This document shows, in pieces, positions 1 through 44,901 of a stretch of 45,127 nucleotides of DNA. The DNA is from a virus, in IMG/VR virus record IMGVR_UViG_3300035043_000056, positions 1-45,127 of that record; one strand, written 5' to 3'. The notes under the pieces were generated by a model. The model was not told the DNA's origin and made no database searches. It saw nothing but the letters and a program-made list of their open reading frames with translations. The translations under genes and the position numbers were made by a program. Position 1 is the first letter of the stretch, and each line of letters starts with the position of its first letter.

Positions 1-127
1 GGGGGGTCGGATCGGATATGTAAACTAATCAATGGGTTATGAAAAGAGGGGTGGGGGTGCGGATTCAAAAACGCCTTATACAGGCATTCTAAACCTTTGT
101 TATTCCATCATGTTATCTAACACGCCT
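1..127. repeat. Terminal exact duplication, copy 1 (identical to 45001-45127)
   Basis: Bases 1-127 match 45001-45127 at every position. The unique sequence is therefore 45,000 bp. Confidence 0.97.
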
Positions 128-567
128 GTATCAATAGGCTTTGCACGTTTCACGGCTTCAGCTTGTAAAGCCTTCAAACGCCTGGCAAGCTGATCCTGTG
201 TCATGGTGCTAGGTGCATCATCAAAAGTTCCTAAGTTATTGAGTTCTAGGGCTTTTTCAGCTAACCATTGATTAGCCTTTAGGCGTGTTGCCTTTGATCC
301 TTCGTTATCCTGGGCGATCAACTTAATGTTTTTGATAGCCAAGAGGCCGGAAAGCTGAATATCACGCTCTAAATATTCTTTTACACGCTCTGAAAAAACA
401 TTACTCCCCATAATCTGCATAACTAGCTTTAAATCGCATGAGTACGCACTTGCAACCGTGTCGGGGTTTTCACCCTGCAACAGCTTCAAAACAATGTTTT
501 CCATTAAATCTTGTTTGATAAGGTCATTCATAAGGCCATAAATACAGGCTTTTGACAGGCTTTGCAA
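100..567 (-). CDS. Putative small terminase subunit or DNA-binding protein (tentative)
   Basis: 155-aa ORF. The tracked start is TTG at 567; an in-frame ATG at 531 is an alternative. The segment TRLKANQWLAEKALELNNLGTFDD resembles the oligomerisation helix of P27/Terminase_2-type small terminases. It lies next to the repeat-rich non-coding region. The C-terminus is VLDNMME. Confidence 0.4.
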   Translation of the reverse strand: MQSLSKACIYGLMNDLIKQDLMENIVLKLLQGENPDTVASAYSCDLKLVMQIMGSNVFSERVKEYLERDIQLSGLLAIKNIKLIAQDNEGSKATRLKANQWLAEKALELNNLGTFDDAPSTMTQDQLARRLKALQAEAVKRAKPIDTGVLDNMME

Positions 568-582: not shown

Positions 583-600
583 TGCTGGGCATTCCCAACA
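583..600. promoter_or_regulatory. Operator-like dyad box, copy A (minus-strand reading TGTTGGGAATGCCCAGCA)
   Basis: Lies in the divergent intergenic region 568-669. It matches the 18-bp boxes at 10895-10912, 20640-20657 and 44824-44841. Confidence 0.55.
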
Positions 601-5766: not shown

Positions 5767-5800
5767 GAACCCCATTGCGGATCGGTGGGGTTCTTTTTTT
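5767..5800 (+). terminator. Hairpin plus T7 run in the divergent control region
   Basis: GAACCCCA (5767-5774) pairs with TGGGGTTC (5786-5793), followed by T7 (5794-5800). On the + strand it reads as an intrinsic terminator. On the - strand it would form the 5' end of the primase mRNA leader. Confidence 0.45.
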
Positions 5801-5827
5801 ATACATCTACAATGAACTGAGCGTCAA
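5798..5827 (-). promoter_or_regulatory. Sigma70-like promoter for the primase-helicase unit
   Basis: Minus-strand reading is TTGACG (5827-5822), an 18-nt spacer, then TATAAA (5803-5798). Confidence 0.5.
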
Positions 5828-5859
5828 TATAAAATGTTGGTGATTTCCTTCTTTTTCTG

Positions 5860-5888
5860 TTGACACCGCTTTTTTGCTGTTCTATGTT
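5860..5888 (+). promoter_or_regulatory. Sigma70-like rightward early promoter
   Basis: TTGACA (5860-5865), a 17-nt spacer, then TATGTT (5883-5888). A degenerate operator box, TGTTGGGTAAATCCAGAC (5885-5902), overlaps the -10. Confidence 0.6.
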
Positions 5889-5953
5889 GGGTAAATCCAG
5901 ACGAACACGGACGACCGTGAACGTTGATGGAAAGAAACAAAGGAACTGCTGAA

Positions 5954-6205
5954 ATGAAAAAATATTTTTTAATTGCTACGGCAATCACCCTCTTGACAAC
6001 TCCTGCAATCGCTGAAACTGCCACAATCTGTTATCCTCCTATCGAGGTCCAGGCTGAGATCGTTTCTCAACAGATCGCACAAAAAGTGATCGACGAATAT
6101 TGCAACCAACTCGATCCTGTGTCCAGTGAAAAAGGTGCGATCATTATTTATTATGATCGTGATGCCAATGGTGAATGTGTCGCCAAAGTTAAAGTGGTGA
6201 AATAA
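5954..6205 (+). CDS. Small secreted protein (signal peptide)
   Basis: ATG at 5954 follows AAGGA. The N-terminus, MKKYFLIATAITLLTTPAIA|ETA, looks like a Sec signal peptide. Confidence 0.7.
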   Translation: MKKYFLIATAITLLTTPAIAETATICYPPIEVQAEIVSQQIAQKVIDEYCNQLDPVSSEKGAIIIYYDRDANGECVAKVKVVK

Positions 6206-6411
6206 TGCGACGGGGGGATAGCAGAGTTCGTACAGGTGCTTCGCTTCGATCAGTGTGTGGTGATGTCACCATTCGCGGTCAGGCGAAGCAGATTGCAGCC
6301 AAGTATGAAGAGCTTGCTATTGAGGCTCACCGGAACCGTGATAACGTAATGGCGCACAACTACCTGCAACACTCGGAACACTATAAAAGGGTTCAAGAAA
6401 ATGTCCAATAA
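6205..6411 (+). CDS. DUF4167-like protein
   Basis: IRGQAKQIAAKYEELAIEAHRNRDNVMAHNYLQHSEHYKRV follows the alphaproteobacterial DUF4167 pattern (G-A-Q-YE-LA, then ENY-QHAEHY-R). TAATG coupling to the upstream gene. Confidence 0.6.
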   Translation: MRRGDSRVRTGASLRSVCGDVTIRGQAKQIAAKYEELAIEAHRNRDNVMAHNYLQHSEHYKRVQENVQ

Positions 6412-7192
6412 ACTTCACATCGATACGATGGATGCGCGTGGCGCGGCTGTGCTGTCCGAATACCTTGAACTGCAAGGTTTCCGCTATGGATATAACGGTC
6501 GCGCCTGTCAACGTCGCTCACCGAGCAACATGCGCTTCGTCACTGTTGATCGTGATGCGCTGTTTTACAGCGGCAGCAAAGGTGCGGCAACCGATGTCAC
6601 ATGGCACGAGTTGACCAAGCATGAGATCAAAGAAATGCTGAAGGCGATCAAGGATGAGGCATTGTCGGCAGATGTGATGCGCGAAGCCAAATACCATCGT
6701 CTGTCGGCAACGCAATATCTTGTTGTGCAGGAATTCAAAAGCGAATTCGGCAATGATGAATATAAATCGATGTGCAGAAACTTCGGTAAATATAAAGAGG
6801 ATGTTTCTGAACTGTCCGGCTATCAACTGGAAAAGTGCATCTCAATGATGCAGGAGCAAATCAATTTACTCAAAGCAAGGCGGCTCACTGGTGACTATAC
6901 CAACATGTCGCGCAATCACCGCCTCGTGATGAGCAAAGACGAATCCAAACTCGAAAGAGTGTGGGTGACGCAGAATGGTTATGAGATGCCAATCTCAAAA
7001 ATGAAAGATGACCATCTGCACAACACGATACTGTTAATTGATCGCAGTATCAGCAAAGGCATGTACCGCCTTGGTGGGAACGAAGATCTTCCTGAACTCT
7101 TAGAGATGCTGGAAGTCGAACGCACCGAACGCGGTATGCCGATGCCTCTTATCCCGATCAAATCACTTGAATGGAGAAAAGCAAATGTCTGA
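6401..7192 (+). CDS. Hypothetical protein (263 aa)
   Basis: Long ORF overlapping both of its neighbours. Confidence 0.75.
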   Translation: MSNKLHIDTMDARGAAVLSEYLELQGFRYGYNGRACQRRSPSNMRFVTVDRDALFYSGSKGAATDVTWHELTKHEIKEMLKAIKDEALSADVMREAKYHRLSATQYLVVQEFKSEFGNDEYKSMCRNFGKYKEDVSELSGYQLEKCISMMQEQINLLKARRLTGDYTNMSRNHRLVMSKDESKLERVWVTQNGYEMPISKMKDDHLHNTILLIDRSISKGMYRLGGNEDLPELLEMLEVERTERGMPMPLIPIKSLEWRKANV

Positions 7193-7532
7193 CCATGACC
7201 CTGAAACTGGCGAAGTGAAAACTTCGACATCAACTGCCTTGGCTCTCAACAGCCAGGAATCCCTTGACGCTCTGAAGAAGGAAGTGATGGATGAATTCAT
7301 TACGTCCGATAAGGAAGTGTTCAAAGCCGCAATGCGTTCGCTGCTCACACAAGAGCAGAAGTTGAACAAACAAAAAGCGTCCATCGACCAGGACATCGAG
7401 CAGCTTCACAAAGCTCGTGCTGCACTGGAAGAGGCGTTCAAAAACGGCACTCTGCATTCCGCAGAAGATGCGCGTGGTGTTGTTCGCACTGTCGGTAAGC
7501 GTACCAACGTTCTTGACGATTTTGAGGATTAA
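7185..7532 (+). CDS. Hypothetical coiled-coil protein
   Basis: ATG at 7185 follows GGAGAA. The C-terminus is VLDDFED. Confidence 0.7.
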   Translation: MSDHDPETGEVKTSTSTALALNSQESLDALKKEVMDEFITSDKEVFKAAMRSLLTQEQKLNKQKASIDQDIEQLHKARAALEEAFKNGTLHSAEDARGVVRTVGKRTNVLDDFED

Positions 7533-7535
7533 GCC

Positions 7536-8156
7536 ATGTTGAACGGAAAAAAGAAATCCCATCTCGAAGCTCGTGCCTCACTGAAACAGAAAATGTTGAA
7601 GTCCGGCCCGTTGGCGTTCATCGAAGTAACAGCGGCAGAGTTGTCGATTACACTCAGTCCTGAATTTCCTGAACTGATCGAAGAGGTTCGTCAGGAACTC
7701 AAAGAGCGTGAAGTGAAAGCGGCTGTTGCCAAACAACGCGCAGAGCTTGGATCTGAAAGCGGCCTTGCAGCGATGGCGGGTTATCGTCATCCGATGGAAG
7801 GTTTGTCACGCGATCCTGAGTTCACGAAAGAGCCGGACCACAAAGCCCATCTCGAACGGCAGGAGCGCAGCGAACCTGGCGACCTGACATTTGAACAGGC
7901 GGTGCGGCCTCTCATTCGTTATCATTTCGGCCTGTCGTATTGCAGCTATTACACAGTGCCGCGCCTTGCGCTTCAGGAGATGCCGCGCTGGTGGCAGTGG
8001 CTCTTCTGCTTCCTTGTAAATATGCTGCCTGAAACCCCAACCTACACCTGCCAGCGTCGTGATAAGAAAGGTCACTTCATCAAGAATGATCCGTGGGCTA
8101 ACTATCGTCGCGGCAGTGTAAAAGACGTTCAAGAATTGGAGTGTGAACATGACTGA
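7536..8156 (+). CDS. Hypothetical protein (206 aa)
   Basis: Long ORF. I recognise no family. Confidence 0.75.
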   Translation: MLNGKKKSHLEARASLKQKMLKSGPLAFIEVTAAELSITLSPEFPELIEEVRQELKEREVKAAVAKQRAELGSESGLAAMAGYRHPMEGLSRDPEFTKEPDHKAHLERQERSEPGDLTFEQAVRPLIRYHFGLSYCSYYTVPRLALQEMPRWWQWLFCFLVNMLPETPTYTCQRRDKKGHFIKNDPWANYRRGSVKDVQELECEHD

Positions 8157-8715
8157 ACAAGTAGTAATTTTTGATCTCGATGGCACACTTGCTGACATCA
8201 ATCACCGGCTGCATTTCGTGCAGAACGGCAATAAACAGTGGGATGAGTTCTACAAGGCTTGTCCCAATGACGGGCCGAAAGAACCGATCATCGAGCTTGC
8301 CCGTATGTGTGACGATGCTGGTCACACGATTGTCATCTCGTCCGGTCGTTCTGAAAACGTGCGCCAGGAAACAATCGATTGGCTTGAAAAGCACAATATC
8401 AATTATGCGCGGCTTTTCATGCGGCCTGATAACTGCTACGTCAAAGACACGATCCTGAAAAAGAACTGGCTCGATGAGGGTTTATTTGGCCCGAAAGAGA
8501 ACATCCTGTTCGTTGTTGAAGATCGTGATAGCATGGTCGAGATGTGGCGCAAGCAAGGTCTGACATGTTTGCAGGTCGAACGCTGGATCGAAGAAGGTGA
8601 GATGTCCTTTCCATTGAAGAAAATCGAGATGGCGCGTAACATGGCAAAGTTCATTAGCGCGACCGATCAGGACAAACGCTTCAACGATTGGTGTATCGCA
8701 CAGGAGAGAAAATAA
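8149..8715 (+). CDS. HAD-superfamily phosphatase (T4 Pnk 3'-phosphatase / 5'-nucleotidase-like)
   Basis: Motif I FDLDGTLAD, motif II SSGR, motif III K-(x)n-VEDRDSMVEMWRKQGLTCLQV. I prefer the ATG at 8149 after GGAG to the tracked GTG at 8143. Confidence 0.8.
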   Translation: MTEQVVIFDLDGTLADINHRLHFVQNGNKQWDEFYKACPNDGPKEPIIELARMCDDAGHTIVISSGRSENVRQETIDWLEKHNINYARLFMRPDNCYVKDTILKKNWLDEGLFGPKENILFVVEDRDSMVEMWRKQGLTCLQVERWIEEGEMSFPLKKIEMARNMAKFISATDQDKRFNDWCIAQERK

Positions 8716-8783
8716 TGGTACGTTATATCTTACCTGTGCTGTTTTGGAGTTCGCTTTTCGCAATCATTTTTGTGGGGTTTTAA
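8715..8783 (+). CDS. Possible 22-aa hydrophobic micro-peptide
   Basis: Strong RBS (CAGGAGAG) 7 nt upstream and TAATG coupling. The product is MVRYILPVLFWSSLFAIIFVGF. Confidence 0.4.
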   Translation: MVRYILPVLFWSSLFAIIFVGF

Positions 8784-8784
8784 A

Positions 8785-8994
8785 ATGGCTGAAAAAAATA
8801 AATGGGGTCCATACGACATCACGCTCAAAGTGCTGAAGAACAAGGTGTACATCCTTGAATATAAACAGCACGAGAGCGAACATCGTAAGATCCTGACAAA
8901 GGCAATGGCGATCAGGATGGCGAACGATTTCAATGTGCGCCGTGAGATCCGCGACGTAATTATCGAAGCATTCAAAGAAGGAGTAATCGCATGA
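8785..8994 (+). CDS. Hypothetical protein (69 aa)
   Basis: ATG at 8785 lies inside the tracked ORF 8770-8994. Confidence 0.6.
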   Translation: MAEKNKWGPYDITLKVLKNKVYILEYKQHESEHRKILTKAMAIRMANDFNVRREIRDVIIEAFKEGVIA

Positions 8995-9254
8995 ACGCAG
9001 AAACAAAACACGGTGGACCCGAAAATCCCTATGAAACAATCAAGGTGATCGAAGCATGGGGTCTTGACCAGAATTTCAACCTTGCAAACGTTGTCAGCAA
9101 AATTTGCACTGCTGAAAAATCTGAAGACAATGTGCAAACGTTGAAAGATGCCCGATGGTATCTTGACCGCGAAATCAAGAAACTCGAAGGGATGCCTGAT
9201 CCGGCACAAATGGATTTACTCAACCAACCTGAAGGAGAAACTACCAATGGCTAA
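8991..9254 (+). CDS. DUF3310-like protein
   Basis: PYETIKVIEAWGL...FNLANVVSKI...LKDARWYLDREI follows the DUF3310 pattern. ATGA coupling. Confidence 0.55.
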   Translation: MNAETKHGGPENPYETIKVIEAWGLDQNFNLANVVSKICTAEKSEDNVQTLKDARWYLDREIKKLEGMPDPAQMDLLNQPEGETTNG

Positions 9255-9549
9255 AACCCGCAAAGCACCAACCGGTGCAAAACCTGCACAGAAGCCTGTT
9301 CAGAATGCACCAGCAGCGACAGCACCGCAACAAACTATCGTGATGGTTCACTACGTCTGCTTTTCATTTAAGAACGGCAACACGATCAAGGCACCTGTTG
9401 ACAGCGGTGATTCTGCAAAAGCTGTCCTGCGCGATGTCCTGGTGAGCGTCACCAGTGGTAAGCCGTACATCAACGAAGAGAAAGGCATCCTGTTCAATCC
9501 TGTTGAACTGAGCCATTCATTCGCCGTTGTTGAAAGGGCAGCACAATGA
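9247..9549 (+). CDS. Hypothetical protein with a basic, Pro/Ala-rich N-terminus
   Basis: ATG at 9247 follows GAAGGAGAA. Confidence 0.7.
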   Translation: MAKTRKAPTGAKPAQKPVQNAPAATAPQQTIVMVHYVCFSFKNGNTIKAPVDSGDSAKAVLRDVLVSVTSGKPYINEEKGILFNPVELSHSFAVVERAAQ

Positions 9550-9950
9550 ACCAAATCGAGCAAAAAACAGTACCGACGCTTTCCGAAACGGAAATGGCGG
9601 CAATCATCCTGACAGGCGCATGTCACAATCGCGCCTGGAATGCAGGATGGTGGCACGATCTCAATACCGGTGCGAAACTTGATCGCAACGTGCCTGAGAT
9701 GCTGTGTTTGATCCACAGTGAGATCAGCGAGGGTCTTGAAGGTTTCCGCAAAAACCTGAACGACGACAAGCTGCCTCACCGCAAGATGCTCGAAGTCGAA
9801 TTGGCTGATGCAGCCATTCGCATCTTCGATCTTGCTGGTGGTCTTGGCCTTGACATCGCTGGTGCCATCGCTGAAAAGATGGCGTTCAACGAGCAGCGTG
9901 AAGATCATAAGATCGAAAACCGCCAAGGCGAAAACGGAAAGAAGATCTAA
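9546..9950 (+). CDS. MazG-like nucleoside triphosphate pyrophosphohydrolase
   Basis: LIHSEISEGLE...ELADAAIRIFDLAG...KMAFNEQR is a typical MazG-family helix pattern. Confidence 0.78.
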   Translation: MNQIEQKTVPTLSETEMAAIILTGACHNRAWNAGWWHDLNTGAKLDRNVPEMLCLIHSEISEGLEGFRKNLNDDKLPHRKMLEVELADAAIRIFDLAGGLGLDIAGAIAEKMAFNEQREDHKIENRQGENGKKI

Positions 9951-9951
9951 C

Positions 9952-10194
9952 ATGTCAGGTGAGGTCATCTTTATGAACAAAAAAGGTGTCCACTCGTTCG
10001 ACGGGAAAGAGGTCAAGCCTCTTTTTCGTCGGGCGAAAACTGATGAAGAACGCAAGGAAGAATTTGCAGCATGGGCGAAGCTGAAGCCGGTTTATTTTCC
10101 GACCTGGGTGTGGGAAGAAATCAGCAAACGCTATCCTGATCGCTATAAAATGTTCTTGCCGGTTTATCAGGGACAGCGGGTAATTTTAACATAG
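9952..10194 (+). CDS. Hypothetical protein (80 aa)
   Basis: ATG at 9952, immediately after the MazG stop. Confidence 0.6.
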   Translation: MSGEVIFMNKKGVHSFDGKEVKPLFRRAKTDEERKEEFAAWAKLKPVYFPTWVWEEISKRYPDRYKMFLPVYQGQRVILT

Positions 10195-10204
10195 GAAAAA
10201 TCAA

Positions 10205-10498
10205 ATGCGAAATCTGAAATCAATTCTCTCGATGGGTGCTGCAATGTCTGCAATCGCAGCGATGGGTATGCAGGTGCAACGGCCTGTTCGTGCCACGCCT
10301 CGCAAGCCGAAGGTGATGGTCAAACCTGAGCCTTACAAACCAGTCGTCCACTACGTCAATCCTGACCCTCTGCAAGCGGCTCTGAACAAGATGACCAACT
10401 GGCAGCGCAATCAGGCCGGTCGTGCGTGTAAAGGCAATTTCCGTCGCCTCACACCCGAACTGCTGGAACACTTTTGCAATCTGAAGAAACCGGCATGA
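10205..10498 (+). CDS. Hypothetical protein with a hydrophobic N-terminus (97 aa)
   Basis: ORF whose N-terminus, SILSMGAAMSAIAAMGM, is signal-like. Confidence 0.65.
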   Translation: MRNLKSILSMGAAMSAIAAMGMQVQRPVRATPRKPKVMVKPEPYKPVVHYVNPDPLQAALNKMTNWQRNQAGRACKGNFRRLTPELLEHFCNLKKPA

Positions 10499-10686
10499 GC
10501 GCACGATACAAATTAAAAACTGGTCAGATCAATTTCGAGAGCCTGGACAACCCAGGTGCCTATTCCTGCATCGTGATTAAGGACGGGCAGTTTTACAACC
10601 TCTCGGAAGATCTGCGCCAGATGCTCATCGAAAAACTTCAACAGCCCCAACGGGCCGAAACCACCAGCTTAGAGGATATGTTCTAA
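10495..10686 (+). CDS. Small protein ending in SLEDMF (63 aa)
   Basis: ATGA coupling at 10495. It looks like a paralogue of the next gene (INFESLDNPGA versus ISFIRFGNTGA). Confidence 0.65.
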   Translation: MSARYKLKTGQINFESLDNPGAYSCIVIKDGQFYNLSEDLRQMLIEKLQQPQRAETTSLEDMF

Positions 10687-10892
10687 TGGCACAGTTTGAA
10701 TACGACATGGACAAAAACGACATCAGTTTTATTCGCTTCGGTAACACTGGCGCAGCCGGTTCTGAAAGCTGGATGAAAGGGTCGAAAATGAAACCTTATC
10801 AGATCAAAAAACTGAAAGAGCTTTTGAGATCGGTGGAAGGCGCAGATGTCAAGCCTGAAAACACCCCAAATCTCGAAAATATGTTCGAATAA
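10686..10892 (+). CDS. Small protein ending in NLENMFE (68 aa)
   Basis: TAATG coupling. Tandem paralogue of 10495-10686. Confidence 0.65.
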   Translation: MAQFEYDMDKNDISFIRFGNTGAAGSESWMKGSKMKPYQIKKLKELLRSVEGADVKPENTPNLENMFE

Positions 10893-10894
10893 AG

Positions 10895-10925
10895 TGTTGA
10901 CAATTCCCAACAGGAGTTTTAAAAA
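10895..10925 (+). promoter_or_regulatory. Sigma70-like promoter with overlapping operator box, copy B
   Basis: TTGACA (10897-10902), a 17-nt spacer, then TAAAAA (10920-10925). The dyad TGTTG-N8-CAACA (10895-10912) covers the -35. Confidence 0.55.
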
Positions 10926-10931: not shown

Positions 10932-11141
10932 ATGAAAGTTCCTACCCACAAAGAATTCACCGATCACATCAAAGACCATCTGAAAGAAACCGGCGAAAAG
11001 CCATCATCTTTCGGTCGTCGTGTATTGGGTGACAGTGGCGCAATCCCGCGCCTCTTCGAAGGCACCGATCCTCGGCTGTCAACGATGCAACGCATTTTGA
11101 AAGCAATCGAAAAGGCCGCGAAGAATGTTACTCGCTCTTGA
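10932..11141 (+). CDS. Small HTH DNA-binding regulator (candidate repressor/Cro-like), probably leaderless
   Basis: SFGRRVLGDSGAIPRLFEGTDPRLSTMQRILKAI is HTH-like. The ATG at 10932 lies 7 nt after the -10 and has no SD. The tracked start is TTG at 10926. Confidence 0.6.
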   Translation: MKVPTHKEFTDHIKDHLKETGEKPSSFGRRVLGDSGAIPRLFEGTDPRLSTMQRILKAIEKAAKNVTRS

Positions 11142-11604
11142 TCTCGGTACAAAAACAGGTTGGGCGACCAACAGTAATGCTGGCATCCAACATGGTATGC
11201 AGGAATTCAAGAACGACCGTTTTTCCGGTGGCGGGATGCGTTTCCTGAAATTCGAAAAATGGTTGAACGAGATTCCACGACCCACTCAGGTTGTGTTTGA
11301 AGAAGTGCGTCGTCATGCTGCCACCGATGCCGCGCATGTGTACGGGGGCTTGATGGCAATCGTCACAAAATTCTGTGAACAACATGGTATTCCATATCAG
11401 GGTGTTCCGGTTGGCACGATCAAAAAGTTTTGGACCGGCAAAGGCAACGGTAACAAAGAAGCCATGCTCAAAGCCGGTCATAAGCGCGGATTTAAAACCG
11501 TGGATGATGATAACGAAATGGATGCGATTGCCCTCTTGCATTACTGGATTTCAGAGTGTATGGTGGACAAATCCAATATTGAATTGGAAGACATGTTGAA
11601 CTGA
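11125..11604 (+). CDS. RuvC-like Holliday junction resolvase
   Basis: N-terminal LALDLGTKTGWA and C-terminal DDNEMDAIALLHY are the catalytic acidic motifs of phage RuvC-family resolvases. The C-terminus is ELEDMLN. Confidence 0.82.
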   Translation: MLLALDLGTKTGWATNSNAGIQHGMQEFKNDRFSGGGMRFLKFEKWLNEIPRPTQVVFEEVRRHAATDAAHVYGGLMAIVTKFCEQHGIPYQGVPVGTIKKFWTGKGNGNKEAMLKAGHKRGFKTVDDDNEMDAIALLHYWISECMVDKSNIELEDMLN

Positions 11605-11642
11605 TACCCTGCCTGAAATGATGAACTGAAAGACCTGCTGAA

Positions 11643-12989
11643 ATGATCCAAGAACCCAACCTTTTTCCCTACCAGATCGAAGGCGCGAAATTTCTCGCAG
11701 CAAGGCAATATGCCGGTCTGTTCGACGGAATGCGTATGGGTAAAACACGCCAGTTCCTCAAAGCAGCAAGAATGATTGGTGCCGAAACGATTGCGGTCGT
11801 TGCGAAAGCATCAGGTGTTTATGTGTGGGAAAAAGAAGCGCGTGAATGGGGCTTCGATCCGATCATCCTGAAAGCTGGCGACGAGCCACAATGGAAAAAA
11901 TTCAATATCCTTTCGTACAACGGTTTGATCTCTGAATTACACGATCAACTGATCGCCATGTGCTACGACTTACTCGGTGGTGATGAAAGCGATGCGTTCA
12001 AAAATATGCAAGCCGCCAGGACACAAAAATTCTTCGGTCTGCGCGAAGATAAATATCGCGCCAACGTCTTTGTTTTCGACGTTGATTTAGGTCTTATGGC
12101 CTATGCTGATCGCGTGTGGGTGATGACCGGAACGCCTGTGCTGAACAACCCGTCCGAGCTTTACCCGATGATGCGTACCATGTTCCCCGATGCCATCTTG
12201 AACGACAAAACGGGTGAACCGATGTCTTTTAATAATTTCTGCGGTATGTATTGCCGGTACGGAAAAAGCAATGGTTTCGGTCGCAAAATCGTCGGCGGCA
12301 AGAACCTTCAAAAACTGCGCGATCAACTGCGCGGTCGTGTGCTGCGCCGGACAAAAGAGCAGGTGTGGGAAGAATGGAAAGAGCCGATCATCGATCTGCT
12401 GCCTGTTCCTGGCAACGTCGATGGCATCCCGTCGAACGAAATTGCGATGGTGCGCGAAGCTCTCGCTTCTGAAGACATTGTTTCCGCGCTACGGGCCGTG
12501 GCACCGCATTGCGCCAGCTTACGCCGGTTGACCGGTCTTGCGAAAGTCAATGGTGTTGTGGATTGGATTGACGACAATATTGAACTCACTGAAAAACTGA
12601 TCGTGTTCGCGCATCACAAGGAAGTGATTGCCGCGCTGAAAAACAAGATCAAAAAATACAAATACGTCGAGATCATCGGCGGCATGACACAAGAGCAAAA
12701 ATACAACGCATATACGGCTTTTCAGGAAGATCCGAAAGTGCAGATTTTTATCGGGCAGAACCAGGCAGCGCGTGACAGTATCCCGCTGTGGAAAGCCTCG
12801 ACAACGATTTCCATTGAACCCGATTGGGTTCCTGGAAACAACGATCAGATGCTTGATCGTATGACCCACTTCTCAAAGAAAGAACCGTGTGTCGGGTATT
12901 ATGCTACGCTGCGCGGTTCAATCGATGAGGATATACAGAAGGCCAATATCACGAAGCGAGAAATCACTTCTGAGCTTGGATTGAATTAA
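11643..12989 (+). CDS. SNF2-family DNA helicase/translocase
   Basis: LFPYQIEGAKFL...GMRMGKTRQ (motif I), GDESD (motif II), MTGTPVLNNPSELYPMM (motif III), and a C-terminal helicase lobe containing IGQNQAARDSI. Confidence 0.88.
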   Translation: MIQEPNLFPYQIEGAKFLAARQYAGLFDGMRMGKTRQFLKAARMIGAETIAVVAKASGVYVWEKEAREWGFDPIILKAGDEPQWKKFNILSYNGLISELHDQLIAMCYDLLGGDESDAFKNMQAARTQKFFGLREDKYRANVFVFDVDLGLMAYADRVWVMTGTPVLNNPSELYPMMRTMFPDAILNDKTGEPMSFNNFCGMYCRYGKSNGFGRKIVGGKNLQKLRDQLRGRVLRRTKEQVWEEWKEPIIDLLPVPGNVDGIPSNEIAMVREALASEDIVSALRAVAPHCASLRRLTGLAKVNGVVDWIDDNIELTEKLIVFAHHKEVIAALKNKIKKYKYVEIIGGMTQEQKYNAYTAFQEDPKVQIFIGQNQAARDSIPLWKASTTISIEPDWVPGNNDQMLDRMTHFSKKEPCVGYYATLRGSIDEDIQKANITKREITSELGLN

Positions 12990-13008
12990 CCAAACCTCTA
13001 AAGGAGAA

Positions 13009-13626
13009 ATGACAATGCCTATCCAACTTATCATTACCGGCGATCACATCACCGATGTTTTTGCTGAAATCTCAAACTTCGCTGCTGCAATCGGTGGTGA
13101 TGCACCAAAAAACGAAGCTGGCGCGACGAGTGGGTCGAAAGGCTCGACCGCCTCTGCGCCATCCCCCAAGACTGCACCGGCATCGACAGAAGCCCCTGCA
13201 ACTGGTGGAAAAACCGATGCGAAACTGACTCGTAACGAGCAGGATGCAGCGGTTGAAGAAATGGTCGAAGCCGGTGAAAAAGATGCTCGTTACGAGCAGC
13301 TTACCAAAGGTCGCAAAAAAGCGGTCGATGACGGTATCGCCAAAAAAGCCGAAGCAGAAAGCACTGAAGACGCGCTTTCCGACATGTTCGACGACACCCC
13401 TTCAGAGAGTGAAGAGGAAGAAGTCGAAATCACTGCTGACACGATCCGCGACATGATGGGTAAACTCGGCAAAGATGCCAAGGGCAACCCGATCCAGGAA
13501 AACCTGCTCAAGATCAAATCCGTTCTTGAAAAAGCGATCCCGAAAGGCGTGGAAATCAAAGTCGGCAACATCCCTGCTGACAAGCTGCAAACCGTCTTCG
13601 CTGAACTCAAAAAGCTGGAAGGTTAA
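13009..13626 (+). CDS. Acidic low-complexity protein (205 aa)
   Basis: ORF following AAGGAG; ATG 13015 is an alternative start. It has an Ala/Pro/Ser-rich linker, an acidic block SESEEEEVE and an internal LSDMFDD. Confidence 0.7.
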   Translation: MTMPIQLIITGDHITDVFAEISNFAAAIGGDAPKNEAGATSGSKGSTASAPSPKTAPASTEAPATGGKTDAKLTRNEQDAAVEEMVEAGEKDARYEQLTKGRKKAVDDGIAKKAEAESTEDALSDMFDDTPSESEEEEVEITADTIRDMMGKLGKDAKGNPIQENLLKIKSVLEKAIPKGVEIKVGNIPADKLQTVFAELKKLEG

Positions 13627-13627
13627 T

Positions 13628-13819
13628 ATGGCATCGGTCGATATTGATTTTGATCGTATCGATCCCGAAAGGGAAACGAAACACGCATATTTCATCATCT
13701 TCGAAGAAGGTTTTGATGAGGTATCGTGTTTCGTTCCGAAGTCGCAGGTCGAGGTGGATGAAAAACGCAAGGTCGTCACGATGCCTGAATGGATGGCGAC
13801 AGAGAAAGGACTCGTGTGA
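13628..13819 (+). CDS. Hypothetical protein (63 aa)
   Basis: ATG at 13628, immediately after the upstream stop. Confidence 0.6.
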   Translation: MASVDIDFDRIDPERETKHAYFIIFEEGFDEVSCFVPKSQVEVDEKRKVVTMPEWMATEKGLV

Positions 13820-14031
13820 TGTTTATTGAGCAAGCTAGAAAAGCATTACAGGTTAGCCCGAAACCAGAAGCATTTCGCATTGAAAGTGATGAGGTTAAAG
13901 ATTTAGCTGAAGAATTTGAATACAGACTTCAACCAGACGGTCGTAGTAAAAAACAACGATTGAAGGACATCGAGATTCAAATTCGAAGTGGAAACTGCAA
14001 ACTTTTTGGAATTCCAGTGAGGGTTCAATGA
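13819..14031 (+). CDS. Hypothetical protein (70 aa)
   Basis: TGATG coupling at 13817-13821. Confidence 0.55.
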   Translation: MFIEQARKALQVSPKPEAFRIESDEVKDLAEEFEYRLQPDGRSKKQRLKDIEIQIRSGNCKLFGIPVRVQ

Positions 14032-15221
14032 GCGAAGATAACGGACACAGCCTGAACAGCCCTTCATCGTTCGCACGGCGAATCGGCTGCCCTGGATCTG
14101 CAAACCTTGAAAAGCAGTTCCCCAATGAAAGCTCGTCGTATGCCGATGAAGGCACCGCTGCTCACGCGCTCGGAGAGATGTGCCTTAAAGAAGGTAAGGA
14201 TGCCGACTATTATGAAGGCGAGGAAATCAACGCTGAAGACGATCCGACAAAACCGGCGAAGATGTTTACGGTCGATCAGGACATGATTTCGGCGGTGCAG
14301 GAATACGTTGACCATTGCCGACCCCTGTTGGGCCATCATCTGATTGAACACAAGTTTCAGCTTCCATTTCTCGGCTCAGGTGAGAAAGGGACATCCGACT
14401 TTACCGCGCTGAAAGACCGGATCTTGCATGTCGTCGATTACAAACACGGTAAAGGTGTGACGGTCGAGCATGTCGGCAATATTCAAGGTCTGTGCTACGG
14501 ATTAGGAGCCGCGCATCACTTCGACAATCACGAATGGCACACGCTGCGGATCACCATCGCGCAGCCCCGCGCATACCATGAAGAAGGTGGTATCCGGTCA
14601 TGGGATGTGCCTCGTGCAGAATTACTGGATTACATGATCAATTTCGCCGCTGCTGCAAAAGCGACCGAAGATCCAAACGCACCCCTACGGGTCGGATCGT
14701 GGTGCCGCTTCTGCAAGGCCAAGGCACAATGCCCTGAGCAAGCGCGGTCGGCGGCAGAGATCATGGAAATGGATTTCGGTGAACCGACTTCACAGCCGGT
14801 GCCGGTAAATTTTTTGAGTGACGCGCAAATTGCTGACATCGTATTGAACAAGATTAAAATCATTGAGCAATGGTGTGCTTCACTCAAAGACTATGCACAA
14901 ACACGCGCTGAAAGCGGTAAACCGCTTCCTGGCACCAAGCTCGTCGCAACAAGAGCCGTTCGCGTGTGGAAGGATCGTGTAAAGGCTGAAAAATTCTTCG
15001 CAAAACAGTTAGGTGATAACGCCTACAAGATTGTGAAGGAATTTCACAGCGCACCGCAGATCGAAAAAGTTGTGGGTAAAAAAGAGTTCGCAAAACTCAC
15101 CACAGACAAGAAATTCGTGGATCAAATTGGTGTTGAGGCGGTTTCGACCGGCGCAACACTGGTTTCCGAATCGGACCCTAGAGATAGTGTTCGTTCATCA
15201 GTCGAAGATGATTTCGGCTAA
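14028..15221 (+). CDS. PD-(D/E)XK Cas4-like exonuclease (DUF2800-like)
   Basis: SPSSFARRIGCPGS, ADEGTAAHAL, SDFT...VVDYKHGKG (the D...D/E-x-K core) and a C-terminal Cys cluster, WCRFCKAKAQC. Confidence 0.82.
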   Translation: MSEDNGHSLNSPSSFARRIGCPGSANLEKQFPNESSSYADEGTAAHALGEMCLKEGKDADYYEGEEINAEDDPTKPAKMFTVDQDMISAVQEYVDHCRPLLGHHLIEHKFQLPFLGSGEKGTSDFTALKDRILHVVDYKHGKGVTVEHVGNIQGLCYGLGAAHHFDNHEWHTLRITIAQPRAYHEEGGIRSWDVPRAELLDYMINFAAAAKATEDPNAPLRVGSWCRFCKAKAQCPEQARSAAEIMEMDFGEPTSQPVPVNFLSDAQIADIVLNKIKIIEQWCASLKDYAQTRAESGKPLPGTKLVATRAVRVWKDRVKAEKFFAKQLGDNAYKIVKEFHSAPQIEKVVGKKEFAKLTTDKKFVDQIGVEAVSTGATLVSESDPRDSVRSSVEDDFG

Positions 15222-15489
15222 ACACAAAAGGAGAAAACAATGGTCGATAACCAACACCAAAAAAATCAAAGGATATAGAGATTTATCAGAGGAAGAAATT
15301 GCTCTGATGAATGAGGGGAAAGAACTGTCCGTCAAGGTCGGTGAATTCCTCGAAAAGTTGGAGAAAGCAGAGTTCGCACAGACGAGCGATGCCGTACCTG
15401 ACAAACGCTGGCTGTCGATTGGTAAGACGCATCTGCAACAGGGCTTCATGGCTGTGATCAGATCGATTGCCAAACCGACAACCTTTTAA
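15208..15489 (+). CDS. Conserved small phage protein (start uncertain)
   Basis: The ORF frame has an in-frame ATG at 15208 with no RBS. A strong RBS and ATG at 15240 lie in another frame (see the finding). The protein contains YRDLSEEEIALMNEGK and DKRWLSIGKTHLQQGFMAVIRSIAKP. Confidence 0.5.
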   Translation: MISAKHKRRKQWSITNTKKIKGYRDLSEEEIALMNEGKELSVKVGEFLEKLEKAEFAQTSDAVPDKRWLSIGKTHLQQGFMAVIRSIAKPTTF

Positions 15490-15524
15490 CAACCTAAACT
15501 GCTAATCTGAAAGGAACTGCTAAC

Positions 15525-16178
15525 ATGACTAACAAATCAGACGTAACCAAGTGCCATATTTCGAATTCCGGCACGATCATCACCCCATCCGGTCGCCTCT
15601 CATACGCGCAATACCTGATCGAACCACAGGAACGCACCTATGAAGACAGCGGCAAGACGGTTAAGGTTTACAGCATGAACTTGCTGCTGCCTCCTGGTCG
15701 TGATCTTGTGGAATTGAAAAAGGCAATGGGTAAAATCGCCCTCGAAAAATGCAAAGGTGACAAGAACCGCGCAGCTAATTTTGTCAACAAGCGTTTCCTC
15801 GATCCGAACAACCTGCCCCAAGGTGGTAAACCGATGGGTGAAGAGTTCGAAGGCTGGACGCTCATTCGCGCAACGTCTTCTTACAAGCCGAAATTTGCTT
15901 ATCCGAACGGTAAGGAAATTCCTGCGGAAGAAGTCGAAAACGAACTGTATTCCGGTCGTTGGGCGCGTGTGACCATCAACCCATACTGGACGGACAACAA
16001 GAAGAACCCTGGTGTCTGCCTCGGCCTTCAGAACGTCCACCTGCTCGATCACGATGAAAAGCTCGGTGGTGCAATCGCATCTGCTGAAGATGATTTCGGT
16101 GATGCAGGTGTTGGTGAAGACGCTGGCAGCAATGCCGGTGGCGACACCAGCAGCAGCGTTGACGACATGTTCAACTAA
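15525..16178 (+). CDS. T7 gp2.5-like ssDNA-binding protein (DUF2815-like)
   Basis: GRLSYAQYL...YSMNLLLP...YSGRWARVTINPYW...GLQNVHLL follows the DUF2815 pattern. It has an acidic tail ending in VDDMFN. Confidence 0.78.
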   Translation: MTNKSDVTKCHISNSGTIITPSGRLSYAQYLIEPQERTYEDSGKTVKVYSMNLLLPPGRDLVELKKAMGKIALEKCKGDKNRAANFVNKRFLDPNNLPQGGKPMGEEFEGWTLIRATSSYKPKFAYPNGKEIPAEEVENELYSGRWARVTINPYWTDNKKNPGVCLGLQNVHLLDHDEKLGGAIASAEDDFGDAGVGEDAGSNAGGDTSSSVDDMFN

Positions 16179-16184
16179 TCCTCT

Positions 16185-16222
16185 GACGGGCCGGTTTCGA
16201 AAGTTTCCGGCCCGTCTTTGGT
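16185..16222 (+). terminator. Intrinsic terminator after the SSB gene
   Basis: 10-bp GC-rich stem, GACGGGCCGG (16185-16194) with CCGGCCCGTC (16207-16216), followed by TTTGGTT. Confidence 0.7.
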
Positions 16223-16261
16223 TATTATAATGATCAAAAAACAACGAAAGTGAGCAGAATA

Positions 16262-16495
16262 ATGTCCAAGCAAATCCCCATTATAGGTTCGGTGACGGAA
16301 CAGAAATTGATCATCACGTTCGCCAAACAGGAAAACGGTGAAGGCGCGATCAATTTTGATTTCGAGCCACCCATCGCGGAAGCAATTTCGCCGGAACAAC
16401 GTGCAGCCGTAAATGTCGCGGAACAAATCATCAAAATGTTTGGCCTTGATGTTGCGAAGGCTGAGAAGGAGAAAAAGAATGCCATCATCCAGTGA
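16262..16495 (+). CDS. Hypothetical protein (77 aa)
   Basis: ATG at 16262 within the tracked ORF 16250-16495. Confidence 0.6.
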   Translation: MSKQIPIIGSVTEQKLIITFAKQENGEGAINFDFEPPIAEAISPEQRAAVNVAEQIIKMFGLDVAKAEKEKKNAIIQ

Positions 16496-16763
16496 TCACA
16501 TGCAGATCGGCGGTAATGCCGGTGCAAGACTGAAATCTTTCGTTGATCGGATCTGCCGGTTGGAACAGGAGAAGAAGGATCTCGGTGAAGATGTAAAAGA
16601 CGTTTACTCGGAAGCCAAAGGTGTCGGTTTTGACACCAAGATCCTGCGTAAAGTCGTGAAGCGTTCGCAGATGGACCCTGATAAACGCCAGGAAGAAGAC
16701 GATCTGCTCGACACATACGAAATCGCGCTGAAAAACAGCCTGAATTCGATGATGGAGGATTGA
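16479..16763 (+). CDS. GapR-like nucleoid-associated protein (DUF2312/UPF0335)
   Basis: LKSFVDRICRLEQEKKDLGEDVKDVYSEAKGVGFDTKILRKVVKRSQMDPDKRQEEDDLLDTY aligns closely with my recollection of Caulobacter GapR. ATG at 16479 follows AAGGAG. Confidence 0.8.
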   Translation: MPSSSDHMQIGGNAGARLKSFVDRICRLEQEKKDLGEDVKDVYSEAKGVGFDTKILRKVVKRSQMDPDKRQEEDDLLDTYEIALKNSLNSMMED

Positions 16764-16766
16764 TCG

Positions 16767-17042
16767 ATGAATGTCCTCGAACGCGCAAATCAGATCACCA
16801 AAGAACGCGGGAAAACATACGGTCATCCTTATGAAGACTATGTTCGCACCGCGAAGATGTGGTCGGCAATTCTCGGTGTCGAAATCACGCCTGACCAGGC
16901 TATCAAGTGCATGATCGCTGTGAAGCTATCGCGCCTCAGCAAAACACCGGATCATCAAGATAGCATCGATGATCTTGCCGGTTATACATGGTGCCTCGAT
17001 GAGGTCGTGAAGATCCAACGCGGGGTGGATATTGAGGCATGA
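16767..17042 (+). CDS. DUF6378-like protein
   Basis: RGKTYGHP...TAKMWSAILGVEITPDQAIKCMIAVKLSRL...DSIDDLAGY follows the DUF6378 pattern. Confidence 0.6.
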   Translation: MNVLERANQITKERGKTYGHPYEDYVRTAKMWSAILGVEITPDQAIKCMIAVKLSRLSKTPDHQDSIDDLAGYTWCLDEVVKIQRGVDIEA

Positions 17043-17504: not shown

Positions 17505-17560
17505 AAGAAGAATTTACTGAAACAGATCGAGCATAAATACAAAGCCGCAGGAATAAAAAC

Positions 17561-20618: not shown

Positions 20619-20657
20619 ACCTCATGTCGGGGTTCATGTCAATGGGAATTTCCAACA
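20614..20657 (-). promoter_or_regulatory. Near-consensus promoter for xis-int with adjacent operator box, copy D
   Basis: Minus-strand reading is TTGACA (20642-20637), a 17-nt spacer, then TAATAT (20619-20614). The spacer contains AACCCCGACA. The box CAATGGGAATTTCCAACA (20640-20657) overlaps the -35. Confidence 0.6.
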
Positions 20658-25649: not shown

Positions 25650-25653
25650 GTCC

Positions 25654-26265: not shown

Positions 26266-26266
26266 G

Positions 26267-44822: not shown

Positions 44823-44842
44823 CTGTTGGGAATTTACAACAG
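44823..44842. promoter_or_regulatory. Operator-like dyad box, copy C (CTGTTG-N8-CAACAG)
   Basis: TGTTGGGAATTTACAACA at 44824-44841, with perfect 6-bp inverted arms. Confidence 0.6.
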
Positions 44843-44901
44843 TGAATTTCAAAATTTCAGATTTTATTTTTTGGAGATGGGGCCGCTTCTTTTGACAGTG
44901 A

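What the first reader, a model, noticed from the sequence alone, without database searches (positions are those of the whole stretch)
10895..10912. An 18-bp dyad box, TGTTGGGAATTnnCAACA, marks four intergenic control regions plus a degenerate copy on the early promoter
Aligned copies are: 583-600 (minus reading TGTTGGGAATGCCCAGCA), 10895-10912 (minus reading TGTTGGGAATTGTCAACA), 44824-44841 (TGTTGGGAATTTACAACA) and 20640-20657 (CAATGGGAATTTCCAACA). The arms form the dyad TGTTG-N8-CAACA, which is the shape expected for a dimeric HTH protein. All four lie in non-coding DNA. Copy B covers the -35 of the promoter for the small HTH gene. Copy D overlaps the -35 of the xis-int promoter. Copy A sits in the divergent left control region. 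Copy C sits in the large non-coding region. A weaker fifth copy, TGTTGGGTAAATCCAGAC (5885-5902), overlaps the -10 of the rightward early promoter. This layout is what I would expect for the operator set of the lysis-lysogeny regulator, which has not been identified in this genome.
Basis: seen in the sequence. Interest (0 to 1): 0.62.

Follow-up and report, generated by a model that had tools for sequence, protein, structure and literature searches.

The report
Conserved operator box on phage promoters
An 18-bp palindrome sits on every recognisable promoter of this uncultured temperate phage and its relatives, and is most likely the binding site of the phage's own small Cro-like DNA-binding protein; this is a real but ordinary kind of phage gene switch.

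Summary
The window is a complete circular 45,000-bp phage genome.

The box is a 9+9 palindrome, TGTTGGGAA|TTCCCAACA. A matrix built only from related phages ranks the four reported copies as the four best hits. They score 19.9-22.6 bits against a null maximum averaging 13.4 bits. All four lie in the roughly 5% of the genome that is non-coding.

The same four positions carry the box in about a dozen related phage genomes that share only 65-77% DNA identity.

- **Copies A, B and C:** the box holds the -35 hexamer and half the spacer of a sigma-70-type promoter.
- **Copy D:** the box abuts the -35 of a near-consensus xis-int promoter, centred near -42.
- **The weak fifth copy (5885-5902):** conservation shows it is real.
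it lies exactly between the two divergent early promoters.

The best candidate binder is the 69-aa product of 10932-11141. It has a predicted XRE/Cro-type fold resembling HipB, P22 c2 and R-M C-proteins. A box always lies immediately upstream of its gene, and its mRNA is probably leaderless.

The likely mode of action is repression by promoter occlusion. Binding and a lysis-lysogeny role have not been shown. This is a new member of a known kind, of modest interest.

The parts
583..600 (.). Box A, TGCTGGGCATTCCCAACA (+). It overlaps the -35 (585-590) and spacer of the rightward promoter of the 670-2821 operon, with an inferred -10 TAGATT at 609-614. It lies 16-52 bp upstream of the small-terminase gene on the other strand.
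   Evidence: 20.2 bits. The position is conserved in G001-G005, L089, L091 and L092.
10895..10912 (.). Box B, TGTTGACAATTCCCAACA (+). It contains the -35 TTGACA (10897-10902). The -10 TAAAAA (10920-10925) ends 6 nt before the ATG of the HTH gene. The inferred span is -37 to -20.
   Evidence: 22.5 bits. A box sits upstream of the HTH gene in G003, G005 and L095-L098.
44824..44841 (.). Box C, read on the minus strand as TGTTGTAAATTCCCAACA. It holds a -35-like TTGTAA (44839-44834) and the spacer of the promoter facing the late (structural) operon, which starts at 44664. The tentative -10 is GAAGGT (44816-44811).
   Evidence: 22.6 bits. Conserved in G001-G005, L089 and L092, always preceded by A/T-rich iterons.
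20640..20657 (.). Box D, read on the minus strand as TGTTGGAAATTCCCATTG. Its last 3 nt are the first 3 nt of the -35 TTGACA (20642-20637) of the xis-int promoter. The spacer is 17 nt and the -10 is TAATAT (20619-20614). The inferred span is -50 to -33.
   Evidence: 19.9 bits. CAATGGG...CCAACA plus TTGACA is conserved in G001, G002, G004 and G005.
5835..5852 (.). Box E-up (new), TGTTGGTGATTTCCTTCT. It lies 7 bp from the -35 of the leftward primase promoter (cgtcaa, 5822-5827) and 7 bp from the -35 of the rightward early promoter (TTGACA, 5860-5865). It is centred near -52 for both.
   Evidence: 9.4 bits, rank 6, non-coding. Conserved in position in 8 of 8 genomes. L098 carries the identical 18-mer.
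5885..5902 (.). It starts inside the -10 TATGTT (5883-5888) of the rightward early promoter. The inferred span is -10 to +8.
   Evidence: A degenerate dyad at the same place in 8 of 8 genomes, 46-50 bp from E-up.
10932..11141 (+). Gene for a 69-aa XRE/Cro-type helix-turn-helix protein, the candidate box-binding regulator. It is the first gene of the RuvC-SNF2-exonuclease-SSB-DNA polymerase operon, and its stop overlaps the RuvC start.
   Evidence: AlphaFold model with pLDDT 85 and four helices. Foldseek hits are HipB, SinR-N, P22 c2, 434 repressor and C.AhdI/C.Esp1396I, with TM 0.60-0.70 and probability 0.7-0.99. There are 80 homologue clusters, and JGI names some of them 'predicted transcriptional regulator'. 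Helix 2-3 residues are invariant.
100..567 (-). Small-terminase gene (likely start ATG at 531), flanked by boxes A and C. It is not a regulator candidate.
   Evidence: The model (pLDDT 77) best matches the small terminases of PaP3, NV1, E217 and Sf6 (probability 0.99 and 0.97 for the top two).

Best explanation
The box is the operator of a phage-encoded dimeric DNA-binding regulator. The most likely binder is the 69-residue XRE/Cro-type helix-turn-helix protein encoded at 10932-11141. A dimer would recognise the 9+9 palindrome TGTTGGGAA|TTCCCAACA. At promoters A, B and C the operator contains the -35 hexamer and the upstream half of the spacer. At the early promoter one site covers the -10 and start point, and a second lies between the two divergent -35 hexamers. 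Bound protein should therefore exclude RNA polymerase and turn these promoters down, including the protein's own promoter. At the xis-int promoter the site abuts the -35 (centre near -42). That geometry allows either repression or lambda-CI-at-PRM-type activation. What is shown: the sites, their symmetry, their restriction to promoters, their conservation, and the fold class of the protein. What is inferred: which protein binds, the transcription start points, and the sign of regulation.
For: (1) Statistics. The four sites are the top four hits of an independent matrix, and all are non-coding. (2) Phylogenetic footprint. Among phages with only 65-77% DNA identity, boxes occupy the same five promoter regions. 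Information content rises to 1-1.8 bits inside the 18 bp and falls below 0.4 bits immediately downstream of it. (3) The strong half-site lies on either side in different genomes. For example L091 site A reads TGTTGGGAATAACCAATA and G001 site A reads TGATGGACATTCCCATCA. This fits a symmetric dimer site rather than a directional promoter element. (4) Promoter overlap. B has TTGACA-17-TAAAAA. In relatives the same promoter is TTGACC/TGGACA-17-TATAAC. Pxis is TTGACA-17-TAATAT. PE is TTGACA-17-TATGTT. Near-consensus promoters do not need an activator, so a protein lying on -35/spacer or -10 is most simply a repressor. (5) The 10932-11141 product has an XRE-type fold. Its best structural match, HipB, binds TATCC-N8-GGATA (PMC3376134), the same 5-N8-5 geometry. 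(6) A recognisable box lies directly upstream of this gene in 7 of the 10 genomes checked there, while G004 keeps a good half-site and G001 and G002 keep only a degenerate remnant. The -10 ends 6-8 nt before the ATG in most relatives, so the mRNA is probably leaderless, as for R-M controller proteins (PMC2175313, PMC2275141). (7) Negative control. Rhizobium phage RHph_N65 is the closest cultured relative whose whole genome I scanned. No homologue of this protein was found there by tblastn, and it has no box (best 11.6 bits). It uses a different inverted repeat at its own cro/repressor region. (8) The other DNA-binding candidates have better-fitting sites of their own. The 2938-3360 product sits next to the GTGGACA iterons. 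Xis has a conserved inverted repeat in its own leader.
Against: There is no binding data. The assignment to 10932-11141 rests on fold class, adjacency and co-occurrence only. The recognition helix and the box are both invariant across all genomes available, so no covariation test was possible. Pfam gives no HTH family hit for the protein, only a sub-threshold SeqA_N match. In G001 and G002 site B is degenerate although the protein is 79-86% identical. In G003 and L096 site B has two perfect half-sites split by 10 bp, which a single compact dimer could not span. If the protein represses the late promoter C as well, something else must turn late genes on. Promoter C has a weak -10 (GAAGGT, GATGGT), which would also fit activation. 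Start points are inferred.
Confidence: 0.58

Rival explanations
1. The box is the site of a phage-encoded activator, or a dual activator/repressor like R-M C-proteins, Mu Mor/C or T4 MotA. This protein would switch on the middle (B), late (C) and xis-int (D) promoters after early expression.
For: Site D lies at about -42, the classic class II / lambda OR2-PRM activating position (coordinates worked out). Promoter C has poor -10 hexamers in several genomes. Some class A promoters have 19-21 bp between the in-box -35 and TATAAT, as in G001, G004 and G005. A phage without its own RNA polymerase needs some late-gene switch, and no polymerase was found.
Against: In B the in-box -35 is consensus TTGACA at a 17-bp spacing. 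In L091, L092 and G003 the class A box fills the spacer between a good -35 and -10 at 17-18 bp. E-down covers the -10 and start of a consensus early promoter. These positions occlude polymerase and do not recruit it.
Confidence: 0.15
2. The box is bound by a different phage protein: the winged-helix 140-aa product of 2938-3360, the MerR-type excisionase (20381-20581), or the DUF4167 protein (6205-6411).
For: All three are conserved in the relatives that carry boxes. Winged-helix (MarR-like) dimers also bind 16-20 bp palindromes over promoters. The excisionase gene lies directly downstream of box D.
Against: The 140-aa protein lies next to an array of GTGGACA iterons. It ends in the tail shared with replisome proteins, which points to an origin-binding role. 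Excisionase-type proteins usually bind direct repeats as monomers, and this one has its own conserved leader repeat. DUF4167 has no known DNA-binding fold.
Confidence: 0.14
3. The box is the site of a conserved host transcription factor, so that the phage wires all its promoters to a host signal.
For: A single motif on every promoter, including early ones that must fire before any phage protein exists, would suit a host sensor. The motif is unchanged among phages of 41-52% G+C.
Against: The motif matches none of the alphaproteobacterial or other regulator boxes I could recall, such as LexA, CtrA, Fur or FNR types (from memory, not a database test). The box always accompanies a phage-encoded XRE protein. 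It is absent from the related Rhizobium phage, where no homologue of that protein was found. No host genome or prophage copy could be found to test this.
Confidence: 0.08
4. The box is not a protein operator. It would be either an RNA hairpin/terminator or simply a lineage-specific extended promoter element read by RNA polymerase.
For: On the minus strand, copy A folds to -9.8 kcal/mol and is followed by T7, so the scan lists it as terminator-like. In A, B and C the well-kept half always faces the downstream gene in the window. Box positions 3-8 coincide with the -35.
Against: The other copies fold weakly (-2 to -7 kcal/mol) and lack U-runs. The T-run after A becomes an A-run in G004 and G005. 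The strong half flips side in L091 and L092. D lies upstream of its -35, and E-down lies over a -10, so no single register relative to the start point exists. Positions 1-2 (TG) and 14-18 (CAACA) are conserved as mirror images, which polymerase does not require.
Confidence: 0.05

Closest known systems
Lambdoid Cro/CI operators (lambda OR/OL, P22 c2 18-bp operators, 434)
   Same: These are 17-18 bp palindromic sites bound by dimers of an XRE-fold HTH. They overlap the -35/-10 of early promoters. One site next to a -35 at about -42 can activate, as OR2 does at PRM. The cI mRNA from PRM is leaderless. The candidate protein's model superposes on the P22 c2 and 434 DNA-binding domains.
   Different: There is no divergent CI/Cro gene pair, no tripartite operator, and no C-terminal cleavable domain. 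Six single sites are spread over five promoter regions, including the late and xis-int promoters. The candidate gene heads the replication operon.
HipB antitoxin and its operators (TATCC-N8-GGATA)
   Same: HipB is the best structural match (TM 0.66-0.70). Its operator has the same 5-N8-5 dyad geometry (PMC3376134). It represses its own promoter through sites over -35/-10.
   Different: There is no toxin partner here. The sequence specificity is different. The targets are phage promoters rather than a single operon.
Controller (C) proteins of restriction-modification systems (C.PvuII, C.AhdI, C.Esp1396I)
   Same: These are small XRE proteins of about 70-80 aa. They are the first gene of an operon and are made from a leaderless mRNA. 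They regulate themselves through dyads at or next to the -35 (PMC2175313, PMC2275141). They appear among the fold hits.
   Different: C-boxes come as two adjacent dyads that give activation then repression. In the window site B is a single dyad, and only G003, G005 and L096 have a second upstream half-site. No R-M genes are present.
Mycobacteriophage L5 repressor gp71 and its 'stoperators'
   Same: One small phage repressor has many copies of one site spread through the genome, silencing several transcription units (from general knowledge, not checked in a paper here).
   Different: L5 sites are 13-bp asymmetric and number about 30. Many lie within transcribed regions and act as roadblocks. 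Here there are six symmetric sites, all on promoters.

Membership tests
XRE/Cro-CI-type HTH regulator with palindromic operator | Protein has the 4-5 helix lambda-repressor-like (XRE) DNA-binding fold | tested here: met
   The model has pLDDT 85 and helices at 6-20, 24-32, 37-42 and 49-67. Foldseek hits HipB, SinR, P22 c2, 434 and C-proteins with TM 0.60-0.70.
XRE/Cro-CI-type HTH regulator with palindromic operator | Sequence-level membership (Pfam HTH_3/HTH_XRE-type model above threshold) | tested here: not met
   No Pfam HTH family was found at E up to 5. The only hit is SeqA_N, below threshold at 20.5 versus 23 bits, and it came from the G005 homologue rather than the window's own protein, which gave no Pfam hit at all. 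A PDB profile search gives only the SeqA N-domain at E 0.009.
XRE/Cro-CI-type HTH regulator with palindromic operator | Operator is a 14-20 bp dyad with two half-sites about one helical turn apart | tested here: met
   The box is a 9+9 palindrome with arms TGTTG-N8-CAACA. Symmetry is seen in all four window copies and in 22 sites from relatives.
XRE/Cro-CI-type HTH regulator with palindromic operator | Operators overlap core promoter elements | tested here: met
   Shown by sequence only: -35 inside A, B and C; D abuts a -35; E-down covers a -10. Start points are inferred and not mapped.
XRE/Cro-CI-type HTH regulator with palindromic operator | The protein binds the operator specifically | not testable with these tools
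   This needs EMSA or footprinting. Only adjacency and co-occurrence are available.
Lambda-like bistable lysis-lysogeny switch (CI/Cro) | Divergently transcribed repressor and cro genes sharing an operator region | tested here: not met
   The genes flanking the divergent regions are primase versus early genes, and small terminase versus small unknown genes. No HTH gene is among them. By contrast, RHph_N65 has such a pair.
Lambda-like bistable lysis-lysogeny switch (CI/Cro) | Maintenance repressor with an oligomerisation or S24 self-cleavage domain | tested here: not met
   The candidate has 69 aa and is a single domain. No S24 or Peptidase hit appeared in any ORF scanned.
R-M controller (C) protein circuit | Two adjacent C-box dyads upstream of the C gene, and linkage to R-M genes | tested here: not met
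   There is a single dyad at B in the window. The downstream genes are RuvC and an SNF2 helicase, with no R-M genes.
Intrinsic terminator | G+C-rich stem followed by a U-run on the transcribed strand | tested here: not met
   Only copy A (minus strand) qualifies. The others fold at -2 to -7 kcal/mol and have no U-run.

The most novel reading that the evidence does not exclude
One 69-residue XRE protein would be the only transcription regulator of this temperate podovirus lineage. It would sit on all promoters: early, replication, late, terminase-side and xis-int. Its half-site doubles as a -35 hexamer (TGTTGACAA versus TTGACA), so protein and sigma factor compete for the same bases. It would repress five promoters while activating xis-int from the lambda-OR2-like -42 position. 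That would be a one-protein, CI-less switch between silence and development.
Probability: 0.15. Interest if true: 0.55.

Novelty: new member of a known kind. Interest (0 to 1): 0.33.

Why it matters
The result gives a testable regulatory map for an uncultured family of temperate podovirus-like phages, with at least 80 homologue clusters of the regulator in metagenomes. The map has six operator sites, five promoter regions and one candidate regulator. It also shows how promoter and operator sequences are merged in these phages. It does not change how phage gene control is understood. It would become more interesting if the small protein proves to be the only switch of a temperate phage that has no CI-type repressor.

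Tried and rejected
- **Exact-pattern scan of IMG/VR for the box.** It returned 43 hits, about what chance gives for 16 fixed bases, so it was uninformative.
- **Megablast of 9 kb against GenBank phages.** No match.
- **ARAGORN and Rfam on the whole window.** Nothing was found. The tRNA-like piece at about 44700-44760 is not a gene. The 166-nt late leader folds no better than shuffles (z -0.23).
- **Host search.** I searched for small-terminase relatives in one genome per prokaryote species and for the tRNA-like 25-mer. Both found nothing, so the host is unknown.
- **First guess that 11643-12989 was the large terminase.** Rejected: it is an SNF2 helicase. The large terminase is 35516-37183.
- **A phage RNA-polymerase promoter.** Rejected: no such polymerase was found, and the box has no fixed register to start points.
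- **Ribbon-helix-helix reading of the small protein, from the SeqA_N hit.** Rejected after the model showed a four-helix XRE fold.
- **Synechococcus phage MinM1 hit.** It lies in an unannotated frame opposite annotated genes and was not pursued.
- **The 37533 matrix hit.** I first counted it as non-coding. It lies in an unlisted spanin-like gene.
- **Literature search for a TGTTG/CAACA operator.** Nothing relevant.

Full report
**What the window is**

The first 127 bases recur at the end. The record is an IMG/VR virus genome classed as having direct terminal repeats and 100% complete. It is therefore a circular assembly of 45,000 bp with 49% G+C.

Family searches give the following gene layout.
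- **Minus strand:** a primase-helicase operon (5806 to 2938).
- **Plus strand, early genes (5924-10892):** these include polynucleotide kinase and MazG.
- **Plus strand, replication block (10932-19570):** a small HTH protein, RuvC, an SNF2 helicase, an exonuclease, a gp2.5-like SSB, a GapR-like protein and a DNA polymerase.
- **Minus strand, structural and lysis genes (44664 to 20682):** tail fibre, amidase, large terminase, portal, capsid, tail tube and internal virion proteins. These are followed by a MerR-type excisionase and a tyrosine integrase.

The lone minus-strand gene 100-567 is a small terminase by predicted fold. No phage RNA polymerase and no CI-type repressor were found. The closest cultured phages are distant. 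Microcystis phage Mae-Yong1326-1 and Rhizobium phage RHph_N65 have about 39% capsid identity. The GapR and DUF4167 genes hint at an alphaproteobacterial host. No host could be identified.

**Checking the observation**

The pattern is enriched, with 7 strand-hits against 0.76 expected.

Read as two halves, every copy has one near-perfect half and one weaker half.

| Copy | Left half | Right half (reverse complement) |
|---|---|---|
| A | TGTTGGGAA | TGCTGGGCA |
| B | TGTTGGGAA | TGTTGACAA |
| C | TGTTGGGAA | TGTTGTAAA |
| D | CAATGGGAA | TGTTGGAAA |

The ideal site is therefore the 18-bp palindrome TGTTGGGAATTCCCAACA.

To avoid circularity I built a symmetric matrix from 22 sites in related phages only. 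It returns the same consensus. It ranks the four window copies first to fourth (19.9-22.6 bits). Sixty shuffles give a mean maximum of 13.4 and a 95th percentile of 17.2.

All four copies lie in non-coding DNA, about 5% of the genome. The best coding hit scores 15.4 bits (11561-11578). It resembles the GTGGACA iteron and is not conserved.

**Relatives**

The small HTH protein and the small terminase each have many homologues in metagenomes.

I assembled five IMG/VR relatives, G001-G005. They have 41-52% G+C and 65-77% DNA identity in alignable parts. I also fetched parts of eight further contigs.

Boxes occur at the same places in these genomes.
- **Class A:** between the small-terminase gene and the divergent operon (9 genomes).
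- **Class C:** downstream of the terminase gene and its iteron/G-rich region, facing the late operon (8 sites in 7 genomes, plus a degenerate one in L089). It is lost in the two most distant contigs.
- **Class D:** upstream of xis (5 of 5).
- **Class B:** upstream of the HTH gene (7 clear, a half-site only in G004, and 2 degenerate).

Across the 24 class A-C sites, information content rises sharply at box position 1 and falls below 0.4 bits right after position 18. The sites were chosen by similarity to the palindrome, which inflates the values inside the box. It does not create the positional conservation.

**Anatomy relative to promoters (all start points inferred)**

- **Site B:** TG-TTGACA-ATTCCCAACAGGAGTTT-TAAAAA-ttgagt-ATG. 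The -35 is inside the box and the spacer is 17 bp. The -10 ends 6 nt before the start codon, so the transcript should begin at the ATG. Relatives keep this layout, with TTGACC/TGGACA-17-TATAAC followed by 6-8 nt and then ATG.
- **Sites A and C:** both use the same register, with box positions 3-8 as the -35-like hexamer. In G003, L091 and L092 the class A box instead fills the spacer between a separate TTGAC(A/T/G) and the -10.
- **Site D (minus strand):** TGTTGGAAATTCCCA-TTGACA-17 nt-TAATAT. The TTG of the -35 is the end of the box. This explains why the 'CAATG' arm is conserved as such in five phages.
- **Early region:** there are two back-to-back promoters. PL is TTGACG-18-TATAAA, followed by a conserved leader hairpin. 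PE is TTGACA-17-TATGTT. Box E-up lies exactly 7 bp from each -35. Box E-down begins inside the PE -10 (TA|TGTTGG). This architecture, with 46-50 bp between the two boxes, recurs in all eight genomes examined.

**What the box is not**

- **Not an RNA hairpin or terminator.** As RNA the boxes fold weakly, at -2 to -7 kcal/mol. The exception is copy A on the minus strand (-9.8 kcal/mol plus a T-run). That T-run is an A-run in some relatives, and it also serves as the A-tract upstream of the rightward -35.
- **Not a directional promoter element.** There is no common register to start points, and the strong half-site can lie on either side.
- **Not shared with the scanned cultured relative.** RHph_N65, where no homologue of the small HTH protein was found by tblastn, has no box (best 11.6 bits). 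It has a different inverted repeat at its own repressor/cro region.

**Who binds it**

Four conserved phage proteins could bind DNA.

1. **The 69-aa product of 10932-11141.** It models confidently (pLDDT 85) as a four-helix XRE-type domain. Its best structural matches are HipB, SinR, P22 c2, 434 repressor and R-M controller proteins. All of these bind palindromes as dimers. HipB uses TATCC-N8-GGATA (PMC3376134), the same arm spacing as TGTTG-N8-CAACA. The helix 2-3 residues (SSFGRRVL-DSGAI-RL) are invariant in 31 homologues, as is the box half-site. A box lies directly upstream of its gene in most genomes. A leaderless, self-controlled small XRE gene heading an operon recalls C-proteins (PMC2175313, PMC2275141) and cI at PRM.
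2. **The 140-aa product of 2938-3360.** By my reading of the sequence it looks like a winged helix. It lies beside the GTGGACA iterons. It ends in the tail shared by replication proteins. I read it as an origin binder.
3. **Xis.** It is a MerR/excisionase-type protein and has a conserved inverted repeat of its own in its leader.
4. **The DUF4167 protein.** It has no known DNA-binding role.

The small terminase flanked by A and C is excluded by fold. I put about 55-60% on the XRE protein.

**How it most likely works**

Host RNA polymerase fires the near-consensus promoters on entry. The XRE protein accumulates from promoter B, and also by read-through from PE.

Dimers then occupy the strong sites B, C and A, where they compete with sigma for the -35 embedded in the operator. 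They also occupy the weaker pair at the early region, covering the PE -10 and sitting between the two -35s.

At Pxis the site touches only the first bases of the -35, centred near -42. The effect there could be repression or CI-like activation. By gene position the protein is Cro-like. In RHph_N65 the equivalent operon is headed by a small gene opposite a CI-like repressor.

Whether the protein also maintains lysogeny is open. The lack of any CI-like gene makes that possible. The coupling to RuvC and the replication genes argues against it.

How late genes are switched on is unresolved. The weak -10 of promoter C keeps an activator model alive.

**Comparison with known systems and novelty**

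This works like a lambdoid, HipB or C-protein operator system. It is not a member of the lambda CI/Cro switch family, because it has no divergent pair and no cleavable repressor. It is not a member of the C-protein circuits, because it has no paired C-boxes and no R-M genes. The protein's membership of the XRE family holds at the fold level but not at the Pfam sequence level.

The motif and the lineage are new. The kind of system is not.

**Earlier notes of this scan**

The notes had already flagged several features of this same genome:
- the leaderless HTH gene;
- the TGTCGGGGTT 10-mer;
- the iterons;
- the candidate pac/cos region;
- the xis hairpin.

I used them as leads only.

**Limits**

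- There is no experimental or transcript evidence.
- All start points are inferred from hexamers.
- The site sets were picked by similarity.
- The gene map is my own, built from ORFs and family hits.

Noticed in passing
window 459-35439 (e.g. 623-632, 20567-20576, 20625-20634): The 10-mer TGTCGGGGTT/AACCCCGACA occurs 11 times against 0.1 expected. One copy lies 22 nt downstream of box A. One lies inside the 17-bp spacer of the xis promoter. Both placements are conserved in relatives, and at Pxis the motif occurs in either orientation. This may be a second regulator's site or a 5'-leader hairpin.
   Followed up: partly
window, scattered (e.g. 4410, 19984, 29355, 37911, 41262, 44212): 9-10-mers of the type CACGGCCCGTCA / ACGGGCCGT are 50-100 times over-represented and lie mostly inside genes on both strands. 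The meaning is unknown. It could be an uptake-, Chi- or methylation-type word.
   Followed up: no
window 44842-45000 plus 1-99: Downstream of the small-terminase gene, all relatives have a G/C-rich palindromic element (CCGACCCC(C)TGGGGG type). It is followed by 2-6 A/T-rich iterons (TTTTCAAAAATGCAAATTTT type) that end at box C. This is a likely packaging (pac/cos) region.
   Followed up: partly
window 44700-44760 (minus strand): A tRNA 3'-half-like segment with a T-arm (GGGTTCGATCCCC) and an acceptor-like tail. ARAGORN and Rfam find nothing. There is no exact match in 185,579 species genomes. The surrounding leader folds no better than shuffles.
   Followed up: partly
window 5770-5797: A hairpin GAACCCCA...TGGGGTTC followed by a T-run reads as a terminator on the + strand. 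It sits right after the leftward primase promoter's -10, so it is a conserved 5'-leader hairpin of that transcript. Relatives keep the hairpin with different sequences. The primase start codon must therefore lie downstream of the listed ATG at 5806.
   Followed up: partly
window 37434-37640 (minus strand): An unlisted gene encodes a membrane protein (MKLLKWLWAF...). It overlaps the lipoprotein gene 37170-37433. The two look like a spanin pair next to the amidase.
   Followed up: no
G003 33359-33388; L096 about 9949-9988: In two relatives the site upstream of the HTH gene consists of two perfect 10-bp half-sites (TGTTGGRAAT ... ATTYCCAACA) separated by 10 bp instead of abutting. A single compact dimer could not span this. 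It may need two dimers or a bent complex.
   Followed up: no
window 20582-20618: An 11-14 bp inverted repeat (ATATCCTTATA ... TATAAGGATAT) lies in the xis leader. Relatives conserve it with compensating changes.
   Followed up: no
G002 25544-26677; G005 1482-2627: Two relatives carry a 377-381 aa gene between the integrase and the DNA polymerase. It has an N-terminal HTH and a metallophosphatase-like body, and it is absent from the window.
   Followed up: no
window 11561-11578 and 3469-3529: TGGTGGACAAATCCAATA, at the 3' end of RuvC, scores 15.4 bits with the box matrix. However, it matches the GTGGACA iteron array at 3469-3529 as an inverted repeat. It may be a stray origin-type site.
   Followed up: no
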